Part shown: positions 5,008 to 11,008 of the stretch, in pieces
How the letters are laid out: every line of letters starts with the position of its first letter
Position numbering within the stretch: the first letter of the stretch is position 1
Source: a virus
Strand: one strand, 5' to 3'
Virus record (IMG/VR): IMGVR_UViG_3300017917_001271
Location: 1-64,000 of that record
DNA length: 64,000 nt
The notes under the pieces: generated by a model
What the model was told of the DNA's origin: nothing
The model's database searches: none
Seen by the model: the letters and a program-made list of their open reading frames with translations, nothing else
Made by a program: the position numbers and the translations under genes

Positions 5008-5835
5008 ATGTCTTTAAATCCGTTACAGAAGTATTTTAGGCAACCTAAAATCTACATCAGTCTTCCCAGTCAAGGTATCTATAACCACAAAGATGCTATC
5101 GAAGGCGATGTCACTAAGTTAGCAGTTTATGGCATGACTGGCATGGACGAAATCATTTTAAAAACTGCTGATGCTCTTATTTCAGGAGAAAGCACAGCTA
5201 GAGTTATTAAAAGTTGCTGTCCTAGTATAGTAGATCCTTGGGACTTGTCCATGTTAGATATTGATATTATGCTGTCAGCAATACGCATTGCTACTTACGG
5301 TAATAATTTAGAATCTACTAGGCTGTGTAACAGTTGTGGCGCAGAAAATACCTATGCCATTGACTTATCTGACATAATAGAATTTTACGGACAATGCCGC
5401 TACAATAACACAGTCAAAGTAGGCGATCTTACAGTTACTATACGTCCGTTGACTTATAAACAGTCAACTGAATTTGCCATGCAAAATTTTGGGCTACAGC
5501 AGAAATTAGGTCAAATTAATAAACTAACAGATGAAGTTGAACGTCAAAATTCCAGTAAAGCCTTGCTAGAAGAACTGTCTTTGCTGAGACAAGAAATATT
5601 TTCTTCAGGAATTGAAAGTATTAGTGTTGGAACTACTGTGGTTACAGATCAACAGCACATTAAAGAATGGATTAGTAATGTTGACAGAGCTGTCAGTGAC
5701 GCAGTTAGTAAACATTTAGACAAAGTTAAACAACAATGGACTCCGCCAACTAAAACCGCAGTCTGTGACAGTTGCGGACATGAAGAATCAATCTACGTTG
5801 AATTGGATCAATCAAATTTTTTCGTAGGCGCCTAA
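5008..5835 (+). CDS. Baseplate hub/tail assembly chaperone, T4 gp26-like
   Basis: NPLQKYFRQPKIYISLPSQG N-terminus, two CxxC pairs, GGAG SD. Confidence 0.7.
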   Translation: MSLNPLQKYFRQPKIYISLPSQGIYNHKDAIEGDVTKLAVYGMTGMDEIILKTADALISGESTARVIKSCCPSIVDPWDLSMLDIDIMLSAIRIATYGNNLESTRLCNSCGAENTYAIDLSDIIEFYGQCRYNNTVKVGDLTVTIRPLTYKQSTEFAMQNFGLQQKLGQINKLTDEVERQNSSKALLEELSLLRQEIFSSGIESISVGTTVVTDQQHIKEWISNVDRAVSDAVSKHLDKVKQQWTPPTKTAVCDSCGHEESIYVELDQSNFFVGA

Positions 5836-6056: not shown

Positions 6057-7028
6057 TTATTTGGTAAAGCCGTGCGTCATGTCAATGTCGCTGTCGGCTT
6101 GTCTAAATGGCTTTATCTCAGGTGCTTTAGGCGGTTGTTGTGCTTTGTCACTGCCCATTTTTCTAAGAATAGCATCATATCCAGTCTTAACTGCGTGTCC
6201 GCCGACAAAGTTAATAGCATCCTTAAATGTAGGACCAAAAGGAACTGATGTTTCTGTTCCGTAGAACATGGCCTTACCTACTAGCCAATTGGCAAATGCC
6301 TGTTTGCCTTCGTCTGTGTAGAACCAAGTTTGGAATGTGGCTTTGGCCGCTGGACTGAGCATGTTAAATGCTTTGCCAATTGGACCCCAACCTAAAGGTC
6401 CTAGCATTTGAATGCCGTTAGGTCCTAGTGCCCATCCGATGATTTTGTTACCTGCCCAAGCGGCAACTACTTCTCTTAGGCATTTGTTGATTTCCCATTG
6501 AACAATCCACTGTAGTTTAGCACCTTGATACTCAGGATGTCCTTCTTCGTTTTTCTGATATGCGTCCATGATGTAATAAATCATTTCTGCAATAGGTTTT
6601 CCAATGTTTAAGGCAAGGAAAATTCCGTTGTAAAGAGTTAAACTAGCGCCATACCACAGTTCCATAGCATGAGCTGCATCTCTAACCTTGGGCATTATCT
6701 TGCCTTTGTATAGTTTGTAGGCCAGCTGTTCAGCTTCGTCTAGCACATTCTTCGCTATGCCTGCAGCCTCTGCTTCAGCACGGCCTGCACGTACAGCACT
6801 TGCAATAGTAACATCTGCTTTGCTGGCAGTCATGGACCATCCTTTAGCCAATTCTTCTGCTGCATTAGGATTGTTTTTAACATTATTGGCCAACCACGCC
6901 AATGCTTTTTCTGCTAGATTTCCTATGCCTTTGCCATCAGTCTTGAGAGCATAGCTTAATAAGGTCCAGAATCTTACCATCTGTTCCTGTAATAATCGTG
7001 ATTCGTTTACTATTTCTTTTACTCGCAT
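6057..7028 (-). CDS. Hypothetical late protein with hydrophobic segments (possible internal/ejected protein)
   Basis: 323-aa ORF; CATAAATA 4 nt before the ATG; N-terminus MRVKEIVNES. Confidence 0.65.
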   Translation of the reverse strand: MRVKEIVNESRLLQEQMVRFWTLLSYALKTDGKGIGNLAEKALAWLANNVKNNPNAAEELAKGWSMTASKADVTIASAVRAGRAEAEAAGIAKNVLDEAEQLAYKLYKGKIMPKVRDAAHAMELWYGASLTLYNGIFLALNIGKPIAEMIYYIMDAYQKNEEGHPEYQGAKLQWIVQWEINKCLREVVAAWAGNKIIGWALGPNGIQMLGPLGWGPIGKAFNMLSPAAKATFQTWFYTDEGKQAFANWLVGKAMFYGTETSVPFGPTFKDAINFVGGHAVKTGYDAILRKMGSDKAQQPPKAPEIKPFRQADSDIDMTHGFTK

Positions 7029-7032
7029 GTGA

Positions 7033-7040
7033 TATTTATG
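7033..7040 (-). promoter_or_regulatory. Late promoter CATAAATA
   Basis: Near-consensus box directly upstream of the ATG at 7028. Confidence 0.6.
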
Positions 7041-7048
7041 TGTTATAA

Positions 7049-7130
7049 AGATGAACTACGTTCATCTGTTCATCGCTTCGCTCGAACTTTTATCAAGGAA
7101 TAATTAAAGACATATAAACGCGAAGCGTTT
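7049..7130. repeat. Cluster of three GNA-triloop mini-hairpins
   Basis: AGATGAAC-TAC-GTTCATCT 7049-7067; GTTCATCGCTTCGCTCGAAC 7068-7087; AAACGC-GAA-GCGTTT 7116-7130. Confidence 0.8.
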
Positions 7131-7494
7131 TTAGCATTATCCAGATTGTTCAGTCACACTTTGCCCTTGCGGGCAAAAGTTGAACATTATCCGAGTTGAA
7201 CATGTCACACAGCGTTATGGCATTACAGAGGCGGTTGTCCGGTACCTCGAGCCACGTCTTATTACAACGGCGGTTATTATACAAACGCGGTCTTGTACAA
7301 TAACGTAGGGTTTTTCTCCCTTCTTTTAGCCTTTCCTAACTTCTAAATAGCAAAACCGGTTCATAGGCGTATCCGATCATCGTCCTGTTAAGGATAGTTG
7401 CTAAGTGCTCTTTTGGGCAAAAAGACTTCCACGCTCTGCGACATCACCAGAGATTAGGGCGCACGACATTGGCCTGCGCTAGCCATAAAACCCA
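7131..7494 (-). ncRNA. Candidate large structured non-coding RNA, family not recognised
   Basis: Longest ORF-free gap in the window; at least 8 helices folded by hand, with G-U wobbles and a GCAA tetraloop favouring the minus strand; begins at the GIY-YIG stop. Confidence 0.6.
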
Positions 7495-7929
7495 TTATTT
7501 TGCCTGATTTTGTTCTATTAAGCGTTGCCTAAGTATGTTTGAGCCGCCAACTCTGACGTTAATAATACCATTATAGTAGTCGTCAGATTCTAAAACTCTG
7601 CGTTCAAACTGCTCTCTAGCCTCTAGATATGACATTTCTGCCTTGCTTTTGCAAAGATATAGTATTTCTCGTGTGAATTTTTCCGGACCTAGTGCTTGGA
7701 CATCTGCGTTGAGCCTATCGGATGAACCCCAGTAGTCGCGCCAATCGCTTTCTACTACGCTTCTTCTTTTAAGTTTCTTGCCTTTGAGTGGTGGTTTTGT
7801 ACGTTTAAACTGTGCTAGTTTCTTGCCTATGTATTTTTGTCCGGATACAGTATTGGTTATCAAATAAACGAACCCAATGTAGCCTTCAGGTATATTTTCT
7901 ACTGTTTGATTTTGATATGTCCAAAGCAT
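7495..7929 (-). CDS. Small GIY-YIG family endonuclease
   Basis: GFVYLITN...KYIGKK motif, conserved Glu (YLEAREQF) and YYN; 144 aa with no C-terminal DNA-binding domain. Confidence 0.8.
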   Translation of the reverse strand: MLWTYQNQTVENIPEGYIGFVYLITNTVSGQKYIGKKLAQFKRTKPPLKGKKLKRRSVVESDWRDYWGSSDRLNADVQALGPEKFTREILYLCKSKAEMSYLEAREQFERRVLESDDYYNGIINVRVGGSNILRQRLIEQNQAK

Positions 7930-7962
7930 TACGTATGTAGCGAACTTTGGTCATTAGTGCCT

Positions 7963-8220
7963 TTAATCTTGAGCCTTTCTTTTTTGTTTACGTTCTGCTA
8001 ACTGTGCTTCCTTGGTCACAGCCCAGCGTCTAACTATGTCTCTGCGAGCTATGCAGACCTTGCGTATGTCGCTGAGCACTTGTCGTAGTTCAATTGAACT
8101 CTGCTTGGTAGCACGGTTGATCCATTTTTGATTGGCTTCAAAGTAGATACGAAACAGACGCAAAAGTTCTGCGTGTAGTTCCTCATCTTGATAGTCAACC
8201 GGCTCTACCTTTTTGCTCAT
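7963..8220 (-). CDS. Small basic helical protein (possibly Hc1/histone-H1-like DNA binding)
   Basis: 85 aa, K/R-rich; TKQSSIELRQVLSDIRKVC loosely resembles the Hc1-like pattern. Confidence 0.5.
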   Translation of the reverse strand: MSKKVEPVDYQDEELHAELLRLFRIYFEANQKWINRATKQSSIELRQVLSDIRKVCIARRDIVRRWAVTKEAQLAERKQKRKAQD

Positions 8221-9998
8221 TCTTCTATGACCTCTAAGTCCGTAGCATAGCTGGTAAAGCCATTTTCCTTAATAACTTTTAGTACTGTGTTGACACGACC
8301 TATCAGTTCGTCCTTGTGACTGATTAAGAAGATGTTCTTTTTGCGTTCACGCGACATTTTCTTCAGCACACTGAGCGCACTTTCAACGCCTGACGCATCC
8401 AAGCCGTTGTCTACCAGCTCGTCAACAAACAGTAAGTTGATGTTTTGATATAAACTTTCCCATACATCACGGAAGGCCCAGGACAATCCAAGGATCAAAC
8501 GATTGCGCTCGCCTCTACTCAAGTTATCAAAGTCTAGATCCTGTCCTAGCTGTGTGATCTCAACATTAAGATCATTCATAAACGTCACAGTATGCGGCAA
8601 ACCCATCTTATCCAAGTAGTAGGTAAGTCTATTATTGAGATAGGCCAAGTTTTGATCAATGATTTTCTTACGAATAAATGAATCTTTTGACGTCAACAGC
8701 TTGAGCAAGAACTCCTGATGCTCCTTGAGACTGTTTAATTCATTGACAGTATCCCAAGAAATTTCCACTAGAGCTGTGTTCATTAGCTCTTCAATTTGTT
8801 CTTGATAAGGATCTACTTCGCCCGCACGTACGGTTAACTGTGTTTCCAGTGTTTTAAGATTGTTTTGATGTTTGAGTGCTTCTTCTACAGTATCGTAGTA
8901 GGTGTTAGGCTTGCTGCTTACTTCGCCTATAGCATCGATTTCGCCTTGTATCTTGCTGAGGTCTGCCTGCACTTTGGCATGATATTTTTTAGCTTCATCT
9001 AAATGTTCTTGGGCCCGAGTGGTCAACTCCTCATGCTTATGGTCATGTAGCTGTTGTTCACAAGCGTGACAGGTCTTGTTAGCCAACTTGGCAAGCTCGC
9101 CGTCATACTTCGTGACGCTTCGCTCTGCTTGCGCTATCGCGCTTTCTAACGTAGCACGTTCCTTATTCAGCGAGCGCAGCTTCGCTGTCTTTTCTTCAAA
9201 AACTTTCAGCTCGCTGTGCTTCGCAAGCTCAGCTTCTATATCTACGCTCTCTAGTTCTATGATCGCGCGACCGATCTTTTCAAGATCGCCGTCTCTTTGA
9301 GTATTCCAAGCGGTCTGTTTTGTAATTAGACTGTCAATACTCTTTTGAATGCCTTCATTACTACGCTTAGTTGCTTCAATGTTAGCATTCTCTTGTGTAA
9401 TAGATTCTTTAGTTTGACGAATTAGTTCTTTAAGTGTTTCTGCTTTTTCACTTAGTATAGTAATACCTAACAACTGTTCGATAATTGCACGTTGGTCGTT
9501 AGCCCTCATACTTAAGAATGGTTCTGTATAGGTGTTCAATGCAACAATATGCTTGAACATATCGTGACTCATGCCCAGAAGTTCATCTAAGTCCTTCTGA
9601 GTTTCACGCATATCGCCCTGAGCATCATCAGTTTCGCCAGTTTCTTGAGCTTCGTCGTTAACATAGAACTGCAAGATGTTAGGTTTACGTCCTCGCTCAA
9701 TGCGATACATCTGTCCGTCTTTTTCAAACGACAGAGTAACCAGCATGTTCTTATTGTTAATTTTATTAATTAAGTTATCTTTTTTGATGTTAGTCAGTGC
9801 TTGACCAAAAATAGCATAGCTTAATGCGTTGACAATAGTAGTCTTACCTGTGCCGTTACGACTACCACTGTCGTCTCCGCCCATGTCTAGGTTTTCACCT
9901 AGCACCAATGTCAAATGTTCTTTGCTAAAATCCACAGCTTGGGTTTGATTACCCACGCTCATGAAGTTTTTAACTGTAAGTTCTTTTATTTTTATCAT
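8217..9998 (-). CDS. gp46: Recombination endonuclease ATPase subunit (gp46/SbcC/Rad50)
   Basis: Walker A NGTGKTT, coiled coil with CHAC zinc hook, LSRGE signature, Walker B LLFVDE, ISH. Confidence 0.95.
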   Translation of the reverse strand: MIKIKELTVKNFMSVGNQTQAVDFSKEHLTLVLGENLDMGGDDSGSRNGTGKTTIVNALSYAIFGQALTNIKKDNLINKINNKNMLVTLSFEKDGQMYRIERGRKPNILQFYVNDEAQETGETDDAQGDMRETQKDLDELLGMSHDMFKHIVALNTYTEPFLSMRANDQRAIIEQLLGITILSEKAETLKELIRQTKESITQENANIEATKRSNEGIQKSIDSLITKQTAWNTQRDGDLEKIGRAIIELESVDIEAELAKHSELKVFEEKTAKLRSLNKERATLESAIAQAERSVTKYDGELAKLANKTCHACEQQLHDHKHEELTTRAQEHLDEAKKYHAKVQADLSKIQGEIDAIGEVSSKPNTYYDTVEEALKHQNNLKTLETQLTVRAGEVDPYQEQIEELMNTALVEISWDTVNELNSLKEHQEFLLKLLTSKDSFIRKKIIDQNLAYLNNRLTYYLDKMGLPHTVTFMNDLNVEITQLGQDLDFDNLSRGERNRLILGLSWAFRDVWESLYQNINLLFVDELVDNGLDASGVESALSVLKKMSRERKKNIFLISHKDELIGRVNTVLKVIKENGFTSYATDLEVIEE

Positions 9999-11008
9999 AG
10001 GCTATTATAAATCGCTAGTAGCGTATTCTTATTATATGTTTCACTTTCGATATTCACAAGCTGACTGGATACTATCTGATCAACGCTTTCGAAACTTTGA
10101 ACATCGATATCAGTATTGATCTCTACAGCTTTGCGTTCGGTAATCAGTGTCAGTTCTCGAATCTCATACTGACTCATGAAGTTTTCTTTGATAAAACTTG
10201 CTTCTTCGTAGCTGATATCAATGTCCAGTGTTACACGTAGATGTTGTTTGGGCAGTATTAGCGTGTCTGCTTCGTCAATTAATCGACTTAATGTTACAGT
10301 TCTAAATGTAGGTTGCTTGGGCCAAGCATGATATTCTGGTTGCTTTCCCCATTCTAATATCATCATGCCACGTTCGTCATCCCACGCATCTGCATAATTG
10401 TGTGGAAATGCATTACCAATGTAGTGCATATTGCCTTTGTTCTGACGTTTATGAAAGTGTCCGCTAAAGCCCATCTCGTATCCTTGGAAAGCATCCAATT
10501 GGATTTCGCCATGATCTGGCATCTGCACCATGGCATTCATATAGAAGTGCGGTAGCTCAAAGTGTCCAAAGATATATTTGGCTTTCTTTTTACCTATTTG
10601 CTTCCATTCTTCTCCGACAAGCCACGGACACATGGTAACATCTCCTTCGGTAATCGGCTGATGGACCACAGTAATACCAGGAATATACTTGCCAAACTCA
10701 ACACTATGGATATCTCGTTTGTCTTTGTAATACAAATCATGATTGCCAGGGAAAAAGTAAAATGCATCAAACGCCTTACCCAGCTTCTCCAAGGCCCGCA
10801 AGCTATAGTCCATAGTAGTGATATTAAGACTATTACGATTATGGTGCCAATCTCCCATAAAAATTCCTGTATCACAGCCTTCCTCCTTTGCTTTTGCAAT
10901 GTACCAATCTACAAAGTCTTCGCAGTCTTGATTGTGTACGTGACTGTTAGACTTCAAACCAAAGTGTATGTCTGTAAAACAGGCAACTTTCTTAAAAAGA
11001 TTACTCAT
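9995..11008 (-). CDS. gp47: Recombination endonuclease nuclease subunit (gp47/SbcD/Mre11)
   Basis: Metallophosphoesterase motifs TDIHFG, GDWHH, GNHD, GHF, SGHFH. Confidence 0.95.
   Translation of the reverse strand: MSNLFKKVACFTDIHFGLKSNSHVHNQDCEDFVDWYIAKAKEEGCDTGIFMGDWHHNRNSLNITTMDYSLRALEKLGKAFDAFYFFPGNHDLYYKDKRDIHSVEFGKYIPGITVVHQPITEGDVTMCPWLVGEEWKQIGKKKAKYIFGHFELPHFYMNAMVQMPDHGEIQLDAFQGYEMGFSGHFHKRQNKGNMHYIGNAFPHNYADAWDDERGMMILEWGKQPEYHAWPKQPTFRTVTLSRLIDEADTLILPKQHLRVTLDIDISYEEASFIKENFMSQYEIRELTLITERKAVEINTDIDVQSFESVDQIVSSQLVNIESETYNKNTLLAIYNSL

What the first reader, a model, noticed from the sequence alone, without database searches (positions are those of the whole stretch)
7131..7929. 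Minimal GIY-YIG nuclease followed immediately by a ~360-nt ornate RNA: candidate nuclease-RNA system
Seen: in a densely coding window, 7029-7494 is the longest ORF-free gap and starts at the GIY-YIG stop. On the minus strand it folds by hand into GCGCA/UGCGC, CUCUG/CAGAG and UCUUUU/AAAAGA stems. UAGCAA/UUGCUA (7403-7348) closes a junction holding UCCU-UAAC-AGGA and GAUCGG/CCGGUU. Next come AGGG-AGAAAAA-CCCU, a 13-bp stem (7304-7273), a nested GUGGC/GAGG/CGG-ACAA-CCG arm (7255-7217) and a long arm capped by CCC-GCAA-GGG. Loop GCCU could pair with downstream AGGC as a pseudoknot. Several pairs are G-U only on the minus strand, which points to RNA-level selection and co-transcription with the nuclease. 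The 144-aa protein is catalytic-domain only and has a basic insert (KRTKPPLKGKKLKRR). Established: GIY-YIG homing enzymes such as I-TevI use an appended DNA-binding domain, while IscB and TnpB get specificity from an adjacent structured RNA. Inference: this RNA may be the nuclease's scaffold or guide. Alternatively it is a ColE1-RNAII-like replication primer or a stand-alone large phage ncRNA. Caveat: similar small GIY-YIG proteins are common in T4-like phages, so the adjacency may be coincidental.
Basis: partly seen in the sequence, partly recalled or inferred. Interest (0 to 1): 0.85.

Follow-up and report, generated by a model that had tools for sequence, protein, structure and literature searches.

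The report
Twin-box phage RNA, extended Polynucleobacter-1
The gene-free gap behind a small nuclease gene of this uncultured T4-like freshwater phage encodes a real, roughly 445-base, triply knotted non-coding RNA; its first third is the orphan Rfam motif Polynucleobacter-1, the rest is uncatalogued and shows one 7-letter word twice, and it is not the nuclease's guide because RNA and nuclease each occur without the other.

Summary
Window 7029-7494 is the longest ORF-free gap in the window. On the minus strand it encodes a structured RNA of about 445 nt (about 7489-7046).

- **Structure.** Over 50 related phage loci, 81 tested base pairs are 95.7% paired and 57 show compensatory changes. G-U outnumbers A-C 217 to 24, so the minus strand is the folded one.
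- **Known part.** The 5' 140 nt (7484-7345) is a full-length Rfam RF01718 Polynucleobacter-1 match (90.3 bits; cut-off 37). Weinberg et al. 2010 already noted that this motif lies behind the PSSM2_218 gene family, which I show is this GIY-YIG family.
- **New part.** The more conserved 3' two-thirds matches no Rfam family. It carries two 7-nt boxes (GGAUAAU, 7192-7186 and 7142-7136) around a hairpin. The two boxes are identical in 76 of 77 phage loci although the word itself changes between lineages.
- **Nuclease link.** The nuclease-RNA partnership is not supported. The nuclease occurs without the RNA (Melnitz-3, P-SSM2). The RNA occurs without the nuclease in Polynucleobacter genomic islands, beside DUF6641 and a 188-aa tyrosine recombinase. 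In phages the adjacency is fixed synteny behind gp46.

Function remains unknown. This scan has reported the same RNA on many other genomes.

The parts
7495..7929 (-). 144-aa GIY-YIG nuclease, catalytic domain only (SegE-like; same family as P-SSM2 PSSM2_218, often mis-annotated 'NAD synthetase')
   Evidence: Pfam PF19835 7.2e-36 over residues 3-123; phrog_447 1.3e-38; Y22, Y33, G35, R55, E88 and N120 invariant in 5 homologues; tblastn hit to PSSM2_218
7046..7489 (-). Whole structured non-coding RNA (extended Polynucleobacter-1 / twin-box RNA), about 445 nt
   Evidence: Conserved end to end in 53 distinct phage loci; 81 pairs 95.7% paired, 57 with compensatory changes, 0 of 500 shuffles as high; GU 217 against AC 24
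7345..7484 (-). 5' domain = Rfam RF01718 Polynucleobacter-1, full length (model positions 1-141)
   Evidence: cmscan 90.3 bits, gathering score 37, E 1e-19
7329..7368 (-). Pseudoknot PK3: P6 loop GCCU (7368-7365) with AGGC (7332-7329)
   Evidence: Covaries as GCCU/AGGC, ACCU/AGGU and GCUU/AAGC
7275..7302 (-). Long hairpin (10 bp counted) whose loop forms PK1
   Evidence: 10 of 10 pairs with compensatory changes
7209..7291 (-). Pseudoknot PK1: hairpin loop 7291-7285 with 7215-7209
   Evidence: 7 of 7 pairs covary, 98.3% paired
7217..7268 (-). Central knot: GUUGU 7268-7264 with ACAAC 7238-7234 (PK2), crossing GUGGC/GCCAU (7255-7251/7221-7217) and GAGGU/GCCUC (7248-7244/7232-7228)
   Evidence: CG26/UA24, GC26/AU21 and UA41/GC8 for PK2; GC25/CG11/UA6 for He
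7186..7196 (-). Box 1: constant ACUC followed by the 7-nt word GGAUAAU (7192-7186)
   Evidence: Identical to box 2 in 50 of 50 aligned loci and 76 of 77 phage loci
7159..7178 (-). Hairpin between the boxes, UUUUGCCC-GCAA-GGGCAAAG
   Evidence: 8 pairs, 98.8% paired, 2 with compensatory changes
7136..7146 (-). Box 2: constant AUCU followed by the same 7-nt word GGAUAAU (7142-7136)
7117..7129 (-). UUCG-tetraloop hairpin AACGC-UUC(G)-GCGUU
   Evidence: 5 of 5 pairs covary, four pair types at one position
7068..7087 (-). Tail motif: helix GUUC/GAAC closing GAGC-G(N)AA-GCGA (here GCGAAGC); the most widely conserved primary sequence, also present in bacterial islands
   Evidence: UA30/CG20 at the closing pair; conserved in L061-type loci and island loci
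7046..7066 (-). Terminator-like hairpin GAUGAAC-GUA-GUUCAUC followed by UUUA: likely 3' end of the RNA
   Evidence: 6 of 7 pairs covary, 99.1% paired. Not flagged by the simple scan in this window because it has only 2 G-C pairs
6057..7028 (-). Downstream hypervariable gene (323 aa), preceded by CAUAAAUA (late-promoter-like). Its N-terminus MRVKEIVNES belongs to a shared propeptide with (I/L/V)xE sites: an internal-head-protein-like cassette (inferred)
   Evidence: No Pfam or PHROG hit; no tblastn homologue behind the RNA in 80 loci; shared N-termini; ATAAATA column in A1

Best explanation
The gap is an autonomous non-coding RNA gene of about 445 nt. It is a full-length member of Rfam Polynucleobacter-1 (RF01718) whose real extent is three times the Rfam model.

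Architecture (shown). In this lineage of aquatic T4-like phages the order is gp47, gp46, a small ORF, GIY-YIG, then the RNA. The RNA ends at a terminator-like hairpin, just before a late-promoter-like ATAAATA and a hypervariable internal-protein-like gene. It has four parts:
1. the RF01718 5' domain, tied to the next strand by a pseudoknot;
2. a doubly pseudoknotted central domain;
3. a 3' module that shows the same 7-nt word twice (ACUC-word ... hairpin ... AUCU-word);
4. a UUCG hairpin, an A-rich linker, a GAGC-GNRA-GCGA motif and the terminator.

Mechanism (inferred). The RNA acts as a folded scaffold that offers two equivalent copies of a fast-evolving word to a two-site reader. The word would then serve as a lineage-specific recognition code shared by phages and the Polynucleobacter islands that carry their own copy.

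The GIY-YIG gene is an operon neighbour through inherited synteny. It is not a partner of the RNA.
For: - Family membership: RF01718 at 90.3 bits, model positions 1-141.
- Conservation: the whole gap is conserved in 53 distinct loci, and the 3' part is more conserved than the Rfam part.
- Structure: 81 pairs are 95.7% paired, against 80.9% in shuffles and 31-45% when partners are slid. 57 pairs and 626 cells have double changes. Three pseudoknots are supported. UUCG and GNRA loops are present, and GU:AC is 217:24.
- Twin boxes: identical in 76 of 77 phage loci across 10 different words, with one 6/7 intermediate. The same design with other words occurs in L058-L080, in L054 and in Polynucleobacter.
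- No partner in cis: no complementary partner inside the RNA or within 2.5 kb on either side, and no enrichment of the word in the 92-kb genome.
- Independence from GIY-YIG.
- Islands: DUF6641, RNA and a 188-aa tyrosine recombinase lie together (DUF6641 in 20 of 21 loci; recombinase in 15 of 21, the rest cut short). RF01718 is patchy, found in 17 of 151 Polynucleobacter species genomes. Only the RNA is shared with phages.
Against:
- No reader has been identified.
- Identity of the boxes is looser in islands: 5 of 18 differ at 1-2 positions.
- A cis-acting role, such as a replication or transcription signal, would explain the sharing with islands equally well.
- Single-sequence folding is only moderately better than shuffles (z -2.45).
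Confidence: 0.45

Rival explanations
1. Cis-acting nucleic-acid signal. The transcript primes or marks DNA replication (an R-loop origin like T4 ori(uvsY)/ori(34) or ColE1 RNA II), or it loads the sliding clamp that activates the adjacent late promoter. Polynucleobacter islands would copy it to exploit a helper phage.
For: - One copy in the 92-kb genome.
- The RNA is the only element shared between phages and integrase-bearing islands.
- The island copy is preceded by a T4-late-like GCTAAATAA or TATAAATAA in 14 of 14 loci.
- An A/purine-rich linker follows the boxes, and a late-promoter-like ATAAATA follows the terminator.
- A phage-type locus is binned in a Polynucleobacter MAG that also has an island.
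Against: - Three pseudoknots plus GNRA and UUCG loops are more than a primer needs.
- The model does not explain why the two boxes must be identical.
- No replication data are available.
Confidence: 0.2
2. Conflict RNA: a decoy or mimic in a phage-island or phage-host arms race. For example, the island expresses its own version from a phage late promoter to interfere with the phage RNA's partner, or the phage RNA sponges a host factor.
For: - The word evolves fast while the scaffold stays constant.
- Island distribution is patchy, 17 of 151 species genomes.
- A late-promoter-like motif lies upstream of the island RNA.
- Hypervariable genes lie next to the RNA in both settings.
Against: No defence gene was recognised beside the RNA. 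I did not run the PADLOC defence-system library (one search was Pfam only). No target is known, and the model is purely inferential.
Confidence: 0.12
3. Cis-regulatory UTR: a 3' UTR stabiliser of the gp46/GIY-YIG message, or a leader that controls the downstream internal-protein-like gene.
For: The position between two co-oriented genes is constant. Weinberg 2010 listed the motif as possibly cis-regulatory.
Against: - A terminator-like hairpin and a separate promoter-like motif separate the RNA from the downstream gene.
- In islands both flanking genes are different, and the RNA has its own upstream motif.
- The size and the knots far exceed known leaders.
Confidence: 0.1
4. One reading: the RNA is the scaffold or guide of the minimal GIY-YIG nuclease, an RNP like IscB or TnpB with their omega RNAs.
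For: - GIY-YIG lies directly upstream in 28 of 28 testable RNA-bearing viral contigs found by an RNA-based pattern.
- The nuclease has a catalytic domain only.
- The RNA carries short variable words.
Against: - The protein family occurs without the RNA.
- The RNA occurs without the protein in at least 20 island loci.
- Fixed synteny explains the adjacency.
- No protein residue tracks the word: maximum mutual information 0.66 of 1.47 bits.
- The basic segment is present in RNA-less homologues.
- The words also diversify in nuclease-free islands.
- No complementary target was found.
Confidence: 0.04
5. DNA-level recombination site. The identical 7-bp boxes act like the overlap region that must match between partner sites of a tyrosine recombinase. 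This would serve the islands' 188-aa recombinase and cassette exchange next to the RNA.
For: - A 188-aa catalytic-domain tyrosine recombinase lies downstream of the RNA in 15 of 15 evaluable island loci.
- A variable gene slot follows the RNA in both phages and islands.
- A 7-nt length fits the 6-8-bp overlaps of tyrosine recombinase sites (general knowledge).
Against: - Phage loci show no recombinase.
- The boxes lack inverted binding arms and lie only 47-67 bp apart.
- Islands carry their own repeated palindrome TGTCGTTT(T/A)AAACGACA, a likelier recombinase site.
- No third box lies beyond the variable gene.
- RNA-type covariation and tetraloops point to RNA.
Confidence: 0.05

Closest known systems
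Polynucleobacter-1 RNA motif (Rfam RF01718; Weinberg et al. 2010, Genome Biol 11:R31, PMC2864571)
   Same: Window 7484-7345 matches the full model at 90.3 bits. It has the same helices and the same upstream gene family (GOS11034/PSSM2_218, shown here to be GIY-YIG). It comes from the same freshwater and Burkholderiales setting.
   Different: The Rfam model covers only 141 nt. The real RNA continues for about 300 nt with three pseudoknots, twin boxes, tail hairpins and a terminator. In 2010 the motif was found in no purified phage; here it lies in T4-like phage contigs. Related RNAs (L058-L080, L054) keep the twin-box module but have a 5' domain that RF01718 does not detect even at E<=1.
IscB/TnpB omega RNAs (HEARO) and IS110 bridge RNAs: structured RNAs encoded beside minimal DNA enzymes
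   Same: A large structured RNA is encoded next to a catalytic-domain-only DNA enzyme: GIY-YIG in phages, a 188-aa tyrosine recombinase in islands. The RNA contains short variable words.
   Different: The RNA and enzyme do not obligately co-occur. The words are internal, duplicated and only 7 nt long. No matching target was found, and there is no Rfam similarity. Bridge-RNA loops carry two different specificities, not one word twice (general knowledge).
T4 segB - tRNA-Arg - rnaD - rnaC region (stable RNAs behind a GIY-YIG gene)
   Same: The layout is the same: a GIY-YIG gene is followed on the same strand by about 340 nt of stable RNA genes, near an internal-protein gene.
   Different: There is no sequence or Rfam relation. 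The T4 RNAs are tRNA-like. The 9-nt repeat in rnaC is not kept in the SonariX homologue. SegB is a 221-aa homing enzyme with a DNA-binding part.
Large ornate bacterial and phage ncRNAs (GOLLD, ROOL, OLE, raiA)
   Same: It is a several-hundred-nt, multi-pseudoknotted orphan RNA that is carried by phages or mobile islands.
   Different: It matches none of those models. It is smaller. The identity-covarying twin boxes are not a described feature of those RNAs (from memory).

Membership tests
Rfam RF01718 Polynucleobacter-1 | Covariance-model score above the gathering cut-off over the full model | tested here: met
   90.3 bits against 37, model positions 1-141, E 1e-19
Rfam RF01718 Polynucleobacter-1 | Model helices kept by compensatory changes in relatives | tested here: met
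   P1 4 of 5, junction helix 4 of 6 and P6 4 of 5 pairs with double changes
Rfam RF01718 Polynucleobacter-1 | Lies downstream of the GOS11034 / PSSM2_218 gene family (Weinberg 2010 supplement) | tested here: met
   The window GIY-YIG hits PSSM2_218 by tblastn (41% identity, 4e-12). The rule fails in Polynucleobacter islands
GIY-YIG nuclease superfamily (Pfam PF19835 SegE_GIY-YIG) | Profile match plus conserved GIY / YIG tyrosines, Arg, Glu and Asn | tested here: met
   7.2e-36; Y22, Y33, G35, R55, E88 and N120 invariant
Free-standing GIY-YIG homing endonucleases (I-TevI, SegA-G) | Appended DNA-binding domain | tested here: not met
   144 aa, with Pfam covering residues 3-123; no other domain; no PDB relative by sequence
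Free-standing GIY-YIG homing endonucleases (I-TevI, SegA-G) | Sporadic presence or absence among close relatives | tested here: not met
   Present behind gp46 in 79 of 80 related loci and in 28 of 28 RNA-bearing contigs
RNA-guided nuclease systems (IscB/TnpB-omega RNA type) | Protein and RNA obligately co-occur | tested here: not met
   Protein without RNA; RNA without protein
RNA-guided nuclease systems (IscB/TnpB-omega RNA type) | Variable guide segment with a matching target | tested here: inconclusive
   Variable 7-nt words exist, but no complement was found within 2.5 kb on either side or enriched in the 92-kb genome. Targets in other genomes cannot be excluded
Translational bypass cassette (T4 gene 60 type) | An ORF reading into a take-off codon followed by a stop codon, and a matching landing codon after a hairpin | tested here: not met
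   The words read as codon plus UAA or UGA in most phages, and spacing is 47-67 nt. However, no conserved ORF enters box 1 (an in-frame UGA lies 4 codons upstream here). Box 2 is also followed by the stop codon. Island words lack a stop codon
CRISPR mini-array / type III antitoxin repeats | Repeat units bounding variable spacers, or tandem units upstream of a toxin gene | tested here: not met
   Only a chance-level CRISPR-DR57 hit, on the hairpin (18 bits, E 0.68). The 'spacer' is a conserved covarying hairpin. The downstream genes are unrelated to each other
R-loop replication primer (ColE1 RNA II, T4 ori RNAs) | Transcript forms a persistent hybrid and primes leading-strand synthesis | not testable with these tools
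   Only circumstantial evidence: single copy, sharing with islands, A-rich linker

The most novel reading that the evidence does not exclude
The twin-box RNA is a programmable specificity module for whichever minimal DNA enzyme is encoded beside it: a 144-aa GIY-YIG nuclease in phages and a 188-aa catalytic-domain tyrosine recombinase in Polynucleobacter islands. The two identical 7-nt words would each pair with one of two DNA partners that must share that core. This would be an RNA-bridged cleavage or recombination system unrelated to CRISPR, OMEGA or IS110.
Probability: 0.03. Interest if true: 0.95.

Novelty: new variant of a known kind. Interest (0 to 1): 0.6.

Why it matters
An Rfam orphan motif from 2010 turns out to be the first third of a much larger, triply knotted RNA. 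That RNA is common in aquatic T4-like phages and also sits on mobile islands of Polynucleobacter, an abundant freshwater bacterium.

Two copies of one 7-nt word stay identical while the word itself changes. This is covariation by identity, not by complementarity. It implies a two-site reader or a process that needs sameness in itself, and I know of no described precedent in RNA families (this rests on memory).

It might also reveal a new specificity code in conflicts between phages, or between phages and satellites.

The finding does not give an RNA-guided GIY-YIG nuclease.

Tried and rejected
- **blastn of the gap against 50,697 phage records:** no match.
- **Word as a genome-wide motif:** not enriched in the 92-kb genome.
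- **Complementary partner of the word:** none inside the RNA by mutual information and none within 2.5 kb on either side in 70 loci.
- **GIY-YIG residue tracking the word:** maximum mutual information 0.66 of 1.47 bits.
- **Translational bypass like T4 gene 60:** rejected. No ORF enters box 1, and box 2 also carries the stop codon.
- **Small ORF between the boxes:** the frame is not conserved (reading).
- **Box 1 pairing with box 2 flanks, as in the single-sequence fold:** broken by the GC, AG and GA variants (reading).
- **CRISPR repeat or type III antitoxin:** rejected.
- **T4 rnaC as a twin-box relative:** its 9-nt repeat GAGUAGCGU is not kept in SonariX.
- **RNAalifold long-range pairs 16-18/377-379 and 384-387/554-558:** replaced by better-covarying alternatives.
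- **My helix 195-197/266-268:** shows no covariation and is superseded by PK3.
- **Homology between island proteins and phage loci:** none.
- **Literature searches ('Polynucleobacter-1', GIY-YIG with structured RNA, DUF6641):** only Weinberg 2010 was relevant.
Full report
**Setting.** The window is the first 64 kb of a 91.9-kb IMG/VR virus record. It is a T4-like myovirus. gp46/gp47-like genes lie at 8217-11008 on the minus strand and a baseplate hub gene lies at 5008-5835. About 98% of the window is coding. The 466-nt stretch 7029-7494 is the longest ORF-free gap; the next longest is 233 nt. No tRNA genes are present.

The gap is bounded upstream by a 144-aa ORF (7495-7929, minus strand). This ORF is a SegE-type GIY-YIG catalytic domain: Pfam PF19835 at 7.2e-36 over residues 3-123, and phrog_447. 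It is bounded downstream by a 323-aa ORF (6057-7028, minus strand) with no Pfam or PHROG match.

**What is known.** Rfam's covariance models place a full-length Polynucleobacter-1 RNA (RF01718) at 7484-7345 on the minus strand. The score is 90.3 bits against a gathering score of 37, E 1e-19, model positions 1-141. No other Rfam family reaches significance anywhere in 6900-8100.

The family was defined by Weinberg et al. 2010 (PMC2864571). [quoted passage not shown] PSSM2_218 is annotated 'NAD synthetase'. It is a tblastn homologue of the window's GIY-YIG protein. The gene-RNA adjacency was therefore recorded in 2010, without recognising the gene as a nuclease.

**Extent and structure of the RNA.** Eighty related IMG/VR loci were fetched with the GIY-YIG protein. 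In the close group the whole gap down to about 7040 is conserved at the DNA level. The part beyond the Rfam model (7277-7118) is more conserved than the Rfam part.

Fifty distinct sequences were aligned (A1).
- Mutual information and RNAalifold found many covarying pairs.
- A hand-curated structure of 81 pairs was then counted: 95.7% of cells are standard pairs, against 80.9% in shuffles and 31-45% when partners are slid by 1-3 columns.
- 57 pairs and 626 cells have changes on both sides, and 0 of 500 shuffles reach any measure.

Supported elements, in 5' to 3' order:
- the RF01718 helices;
- AGGG/CCCU (7321-7318 / 7310-7307);
- a long hairpin (7302-7275, 10 of 10 pairs covary);
- pseudoknot PK1 between that hairpin's loop (7291-7285) and 7215-7209 (7 of 7 pairs covary);
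- GUGGC/GCCAU (7255-7251 / 7221-7217) and GAGGU/GCCUC (7248-7244 / 7232-7228);
- a GCAA-capped hairpin (7178-7159);
- a UUCG hairpin (7129-7117);
- a GUUC/GAAC helix enclosing GC-GAA-GC (7087-7068);
- a terminator-like hairpin (7066-7050) followed by UUUA.

It supersedes a non-covarying helix I had drawn.

G-U cells outnumber A-C cells 217 to 24, which fixes the folded strand as the minus strand. The single-sequence fold is modestly better than shuffles (z -2.45). The element is therefore a real RNA of about 445 nt with three pseudoknots. Only its first 140 nt are catalogued.

**The twin boxes.** Around the GCAA hairpin lie two direct repeats. Each has a constant part, ACUC (7196-7193) or AUCU (7146-7143), followed by the same 7-nt word GGAUAAU (7192-7186 and 7142-7136).
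- Across the 50 aligned loci the word varies (GG-, GC-, AG-, GA-AUAAU), yet the two copies are identical in 50 of 50.
- Across all fetched phage loci, 76 of 77 are identical and one differs at a single position.
- Ten words were seen: ACAUGAA, AGAUAAU, GCAUAAU, GGAUAAU, ACAUGAU, ACAUAAA, GAAUAAU, ACAUGAG, ACAGAAA and ACGUGAA. They form a network of single substitutions.
- The spacing between the boxes is 47-67 nt.

This is covariation by identity, not by complementarity.

No complementary partner exists inside the RNA or within 2.5 kb on either side. The word is not enriched in the 92-kb genome.

A second group of loci (L058-L080, with GIY-YIG 76% identical) and L054 keep the twin-box module, the following hairpin, the GAGCG-NNA-GCGAAA tail and the terminator. 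Their 5' domain, however, is not detected by RF01718 even at E<=1. The twin-box and tail module is therefore the conserved core of a wider RNA class, and RF01718 describes one version of its 5' domain.

**Is it the nuclease's RNA?** Four results argue against this.
1. *The protein occurs without the RNA.* The closest cultured homologue, in Methylophilales phage Melnitz-3 (61% identity), is followed by small ORFs with no similarity to the RNA. In P-SSM2 the next gene abuts. The family is found in 490 phage records, mostly cyanophages.
2. *The RNA occurs without the protein.* A pattern scan of bacterial genomes found 16 Polynucleobacter/Burkholderiaceae loci with twin boxes. All 8 tested have RF01718 at 70-104 bits, and none has a GIY-YIG hit even at E<=1. 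An unbiased RF01718 search found the RNA in 17 of 151 Polynucleobacter species genomes and in 3 of 151 genomes sampled across the family. In the 21 loci fetched, a divergent DUF6641 gene lies upstream in 20. A 188-aa catalytic-domain-only tyrosine recombinase lies downstream in 15, and the rest are cut by the locus end. GIY-YIG appears only in L454. L454 is a phage-type contig binned into a Polynucleobacter MAG: its GIY-YIG is 89% identical to the window's, its word is GCAUAAU, and it has the same downstream gene type. That is a hint to the host of this phage lineage.
3. *In phages the adjacency is fixed synteny.* gp46 lies directly upstream of GIY-YIG in 79 of 80 loci.
4. *Nothing in the protein links it to the RNA.* No GIY-YIG residue tracks the word. 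The words also diversify in nuclease-free islands: AGCGAAA, AGAGAAA, GGAGAAA, AUCAAAA and AACAAAA. There, 5 of 18 loci differ at 1-2 positions between the two boxes.

**Context that may bear on function.**
- *Phages.* The gene after the RNA is hypervariable. It encodes 218-627 aa, and no tblastn relative of the window's 323-aa protein lies behind the RNA in any of the 80 loci. Yet these proteins share an N-terminal segment, M(K/R)I..(I/L)(I/L).E...(D/E)E(A/G)P.G(M/L)L. Its (I/L/V)xE sites resemble T4 prohead-protease sites and the capsid-targeting sequences of T4 internal proteins. That resemblance rests on my knowledge of T4 and is an inference. The gene is preceded by an ATAAATA motif like a T4 late promoter.
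- *Islands.* The island module also holds an AAA ATPase and a 421-424-aa integrase-like protein. It carries four or five copies of the palindrome TGTCGTTT(T/A)AAACGACA at gene borders. A variable slot lies between the RNA and the small recombinase.
- *Promoter-like motifs.* The island RNA is preceded by GCTAAATAA or TATAAATAA in 14 of 14 loci. No such motif lies within 200 nt upstream of the RNA in 49 phage loci.
- *Shared content.* No island protein has a homologue in the phage loci.

The islands thus look like phage-responsive mobile elements that carry their own copy of a phage RNA. This is inferred, not shown.

**Mechanism.**
- *Shown:* this is an independent, highly structured RNA gene that displays one word twice.
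- *Inferred:* it works as a scaffold presenting two equivalent sites to a two-site reader, with the word as a fast-evolving specificity code.
- *Rivals that remain open:* a cis-acting replication or late-transcription signal, a conflict decoy, a UTR element, and a DNA-level recombination site. Each is scored in the rival list.
- *Rejected:* T4 gene-60-type bypass, despite the codon-plus-stop look of most words and the roughly 50-nt gap, because no ORF enters box 1. T4's segB-tRNA-rnaD-rnaC region is a layout parallel only.

**Earlier notes of this scan.** A look-up shows that the same 'twin-box / extended Polynucleobacter-1' RNA has been reported on many other genomes. I reached the structure, the boxes and the Rfam link independently before the look-up. 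The note that nuclease-free Polynucleobacter islands carry the RNA gave me a lead, which I tested and confirmed.

**Verdict.** The RNA is real. One third of it is already catalogued, and two thirds, together with the identity-covarying boxes, are new. The nuclease-RNA system is not supported. The function is unknown.

Noticed in passing
window 6057-7028 (-); L002-L081 downstream genes: The gene after the RNA is a hypervariable cassette (218-627 aa, mutually unrelated bodies). All versions share an N-terminal M(K/R)I..(I/L)(I/L).E...(D/E)E(A/G)P.G(M/L)L segment behind an ATAAATA motif. It looks like a capsid-targeted internal head protein family with prohead-protease sites.
   Followed up: partly
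L249-L253 (Polynucleobacter genomes G001-G005): Mobile island module: DUF6641 (divergent), the RNA, a variable slot, a 188-aa catalytic-domain tyrosine recombinase, two unknown proteins, an AAA ATPase and a 421-424-aa integrase-like protein. One genome has two copies 18 kb apart, and the three-gene block is inverted in one of them.
   Followed up: partly
L250:4352, 5990, 7338, 8273, 10308; L251:9868, 11723, 13723, 15075: Palindrome TGTCGTTT(T/A)AAACGACA is repeated 4-5 times at gene borders inside the islands, in both orientations. It is a candidate site for the small recombinase or for a regulator.
   Followed up: no
L208-L241 islands, 50-70 nt upstream of the RF01718 start: Conserved GCTAAATAA (TATAAATAA in L211), like a T4-type late promoter, precedes the island RNA in 14 of 14 loci. 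TATAAATA-like motifs also precede the small recombinase in 3 of 5 islands. This suggests expression that depends on an infecting T4-like phage.
   Followed up: partly
L454 (G266:C80:7050-9200): A phage-type locus is binned in a Polynucleobacter MAG that also has an island copy. Its GIY-YIG is 89% identical to the window's, its twin-box word is GCAUAAU, and it has the internal-protein-like gene. This hints that the phage lineage infects Polynucleobacter.
   Followed up: partly
L058-L080, L054 (downstream of GIY-YIG): A sister group keeps the twin-box module, tail and terminator (words ACAUGAA, AGAUGAU). Its 5' and central domains are different and are invisible to RF01718 at E<=1. This looks like domain swapping within one RNA class.
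   Followed up: partly
L005 and L007, A1 columns 319-375: Two loci carry an extra insertion of about 57 nt that forms its own hairpin, in the loop closed by GUGGC/GCCAU. Four others have a shorter insertion there. This is a tolerated expansion site.
   Followed up: no
window 7068-7087 and all groups: The tail motif UGAGCG-NNA-GCGAAA is the most invariant primary sequence across phages and islands. Its first half often repeats the 5' arm and loop of the following terminator hairpin (GAGCG-NNA-GC twice).
   Followed up: no
L254 (T4 69500-75500): T4 has the same layout: segB (GIY-YIG), then tRNA-Arg, rnaD and rnaC on one strand, near ipI. T4 rnaC holds a 9-nt direct repeat GAGUAGCGU 60 nt apart, but the SonariX homologue does not keep it.
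   Followed up: yes
window 7963-8220 (-): An 85-aa ORF lies between gp46 and GIY-YIG. It has no family match and has recognisable relatives in only some related loci, so it is another variable slot.
   Followed up: no
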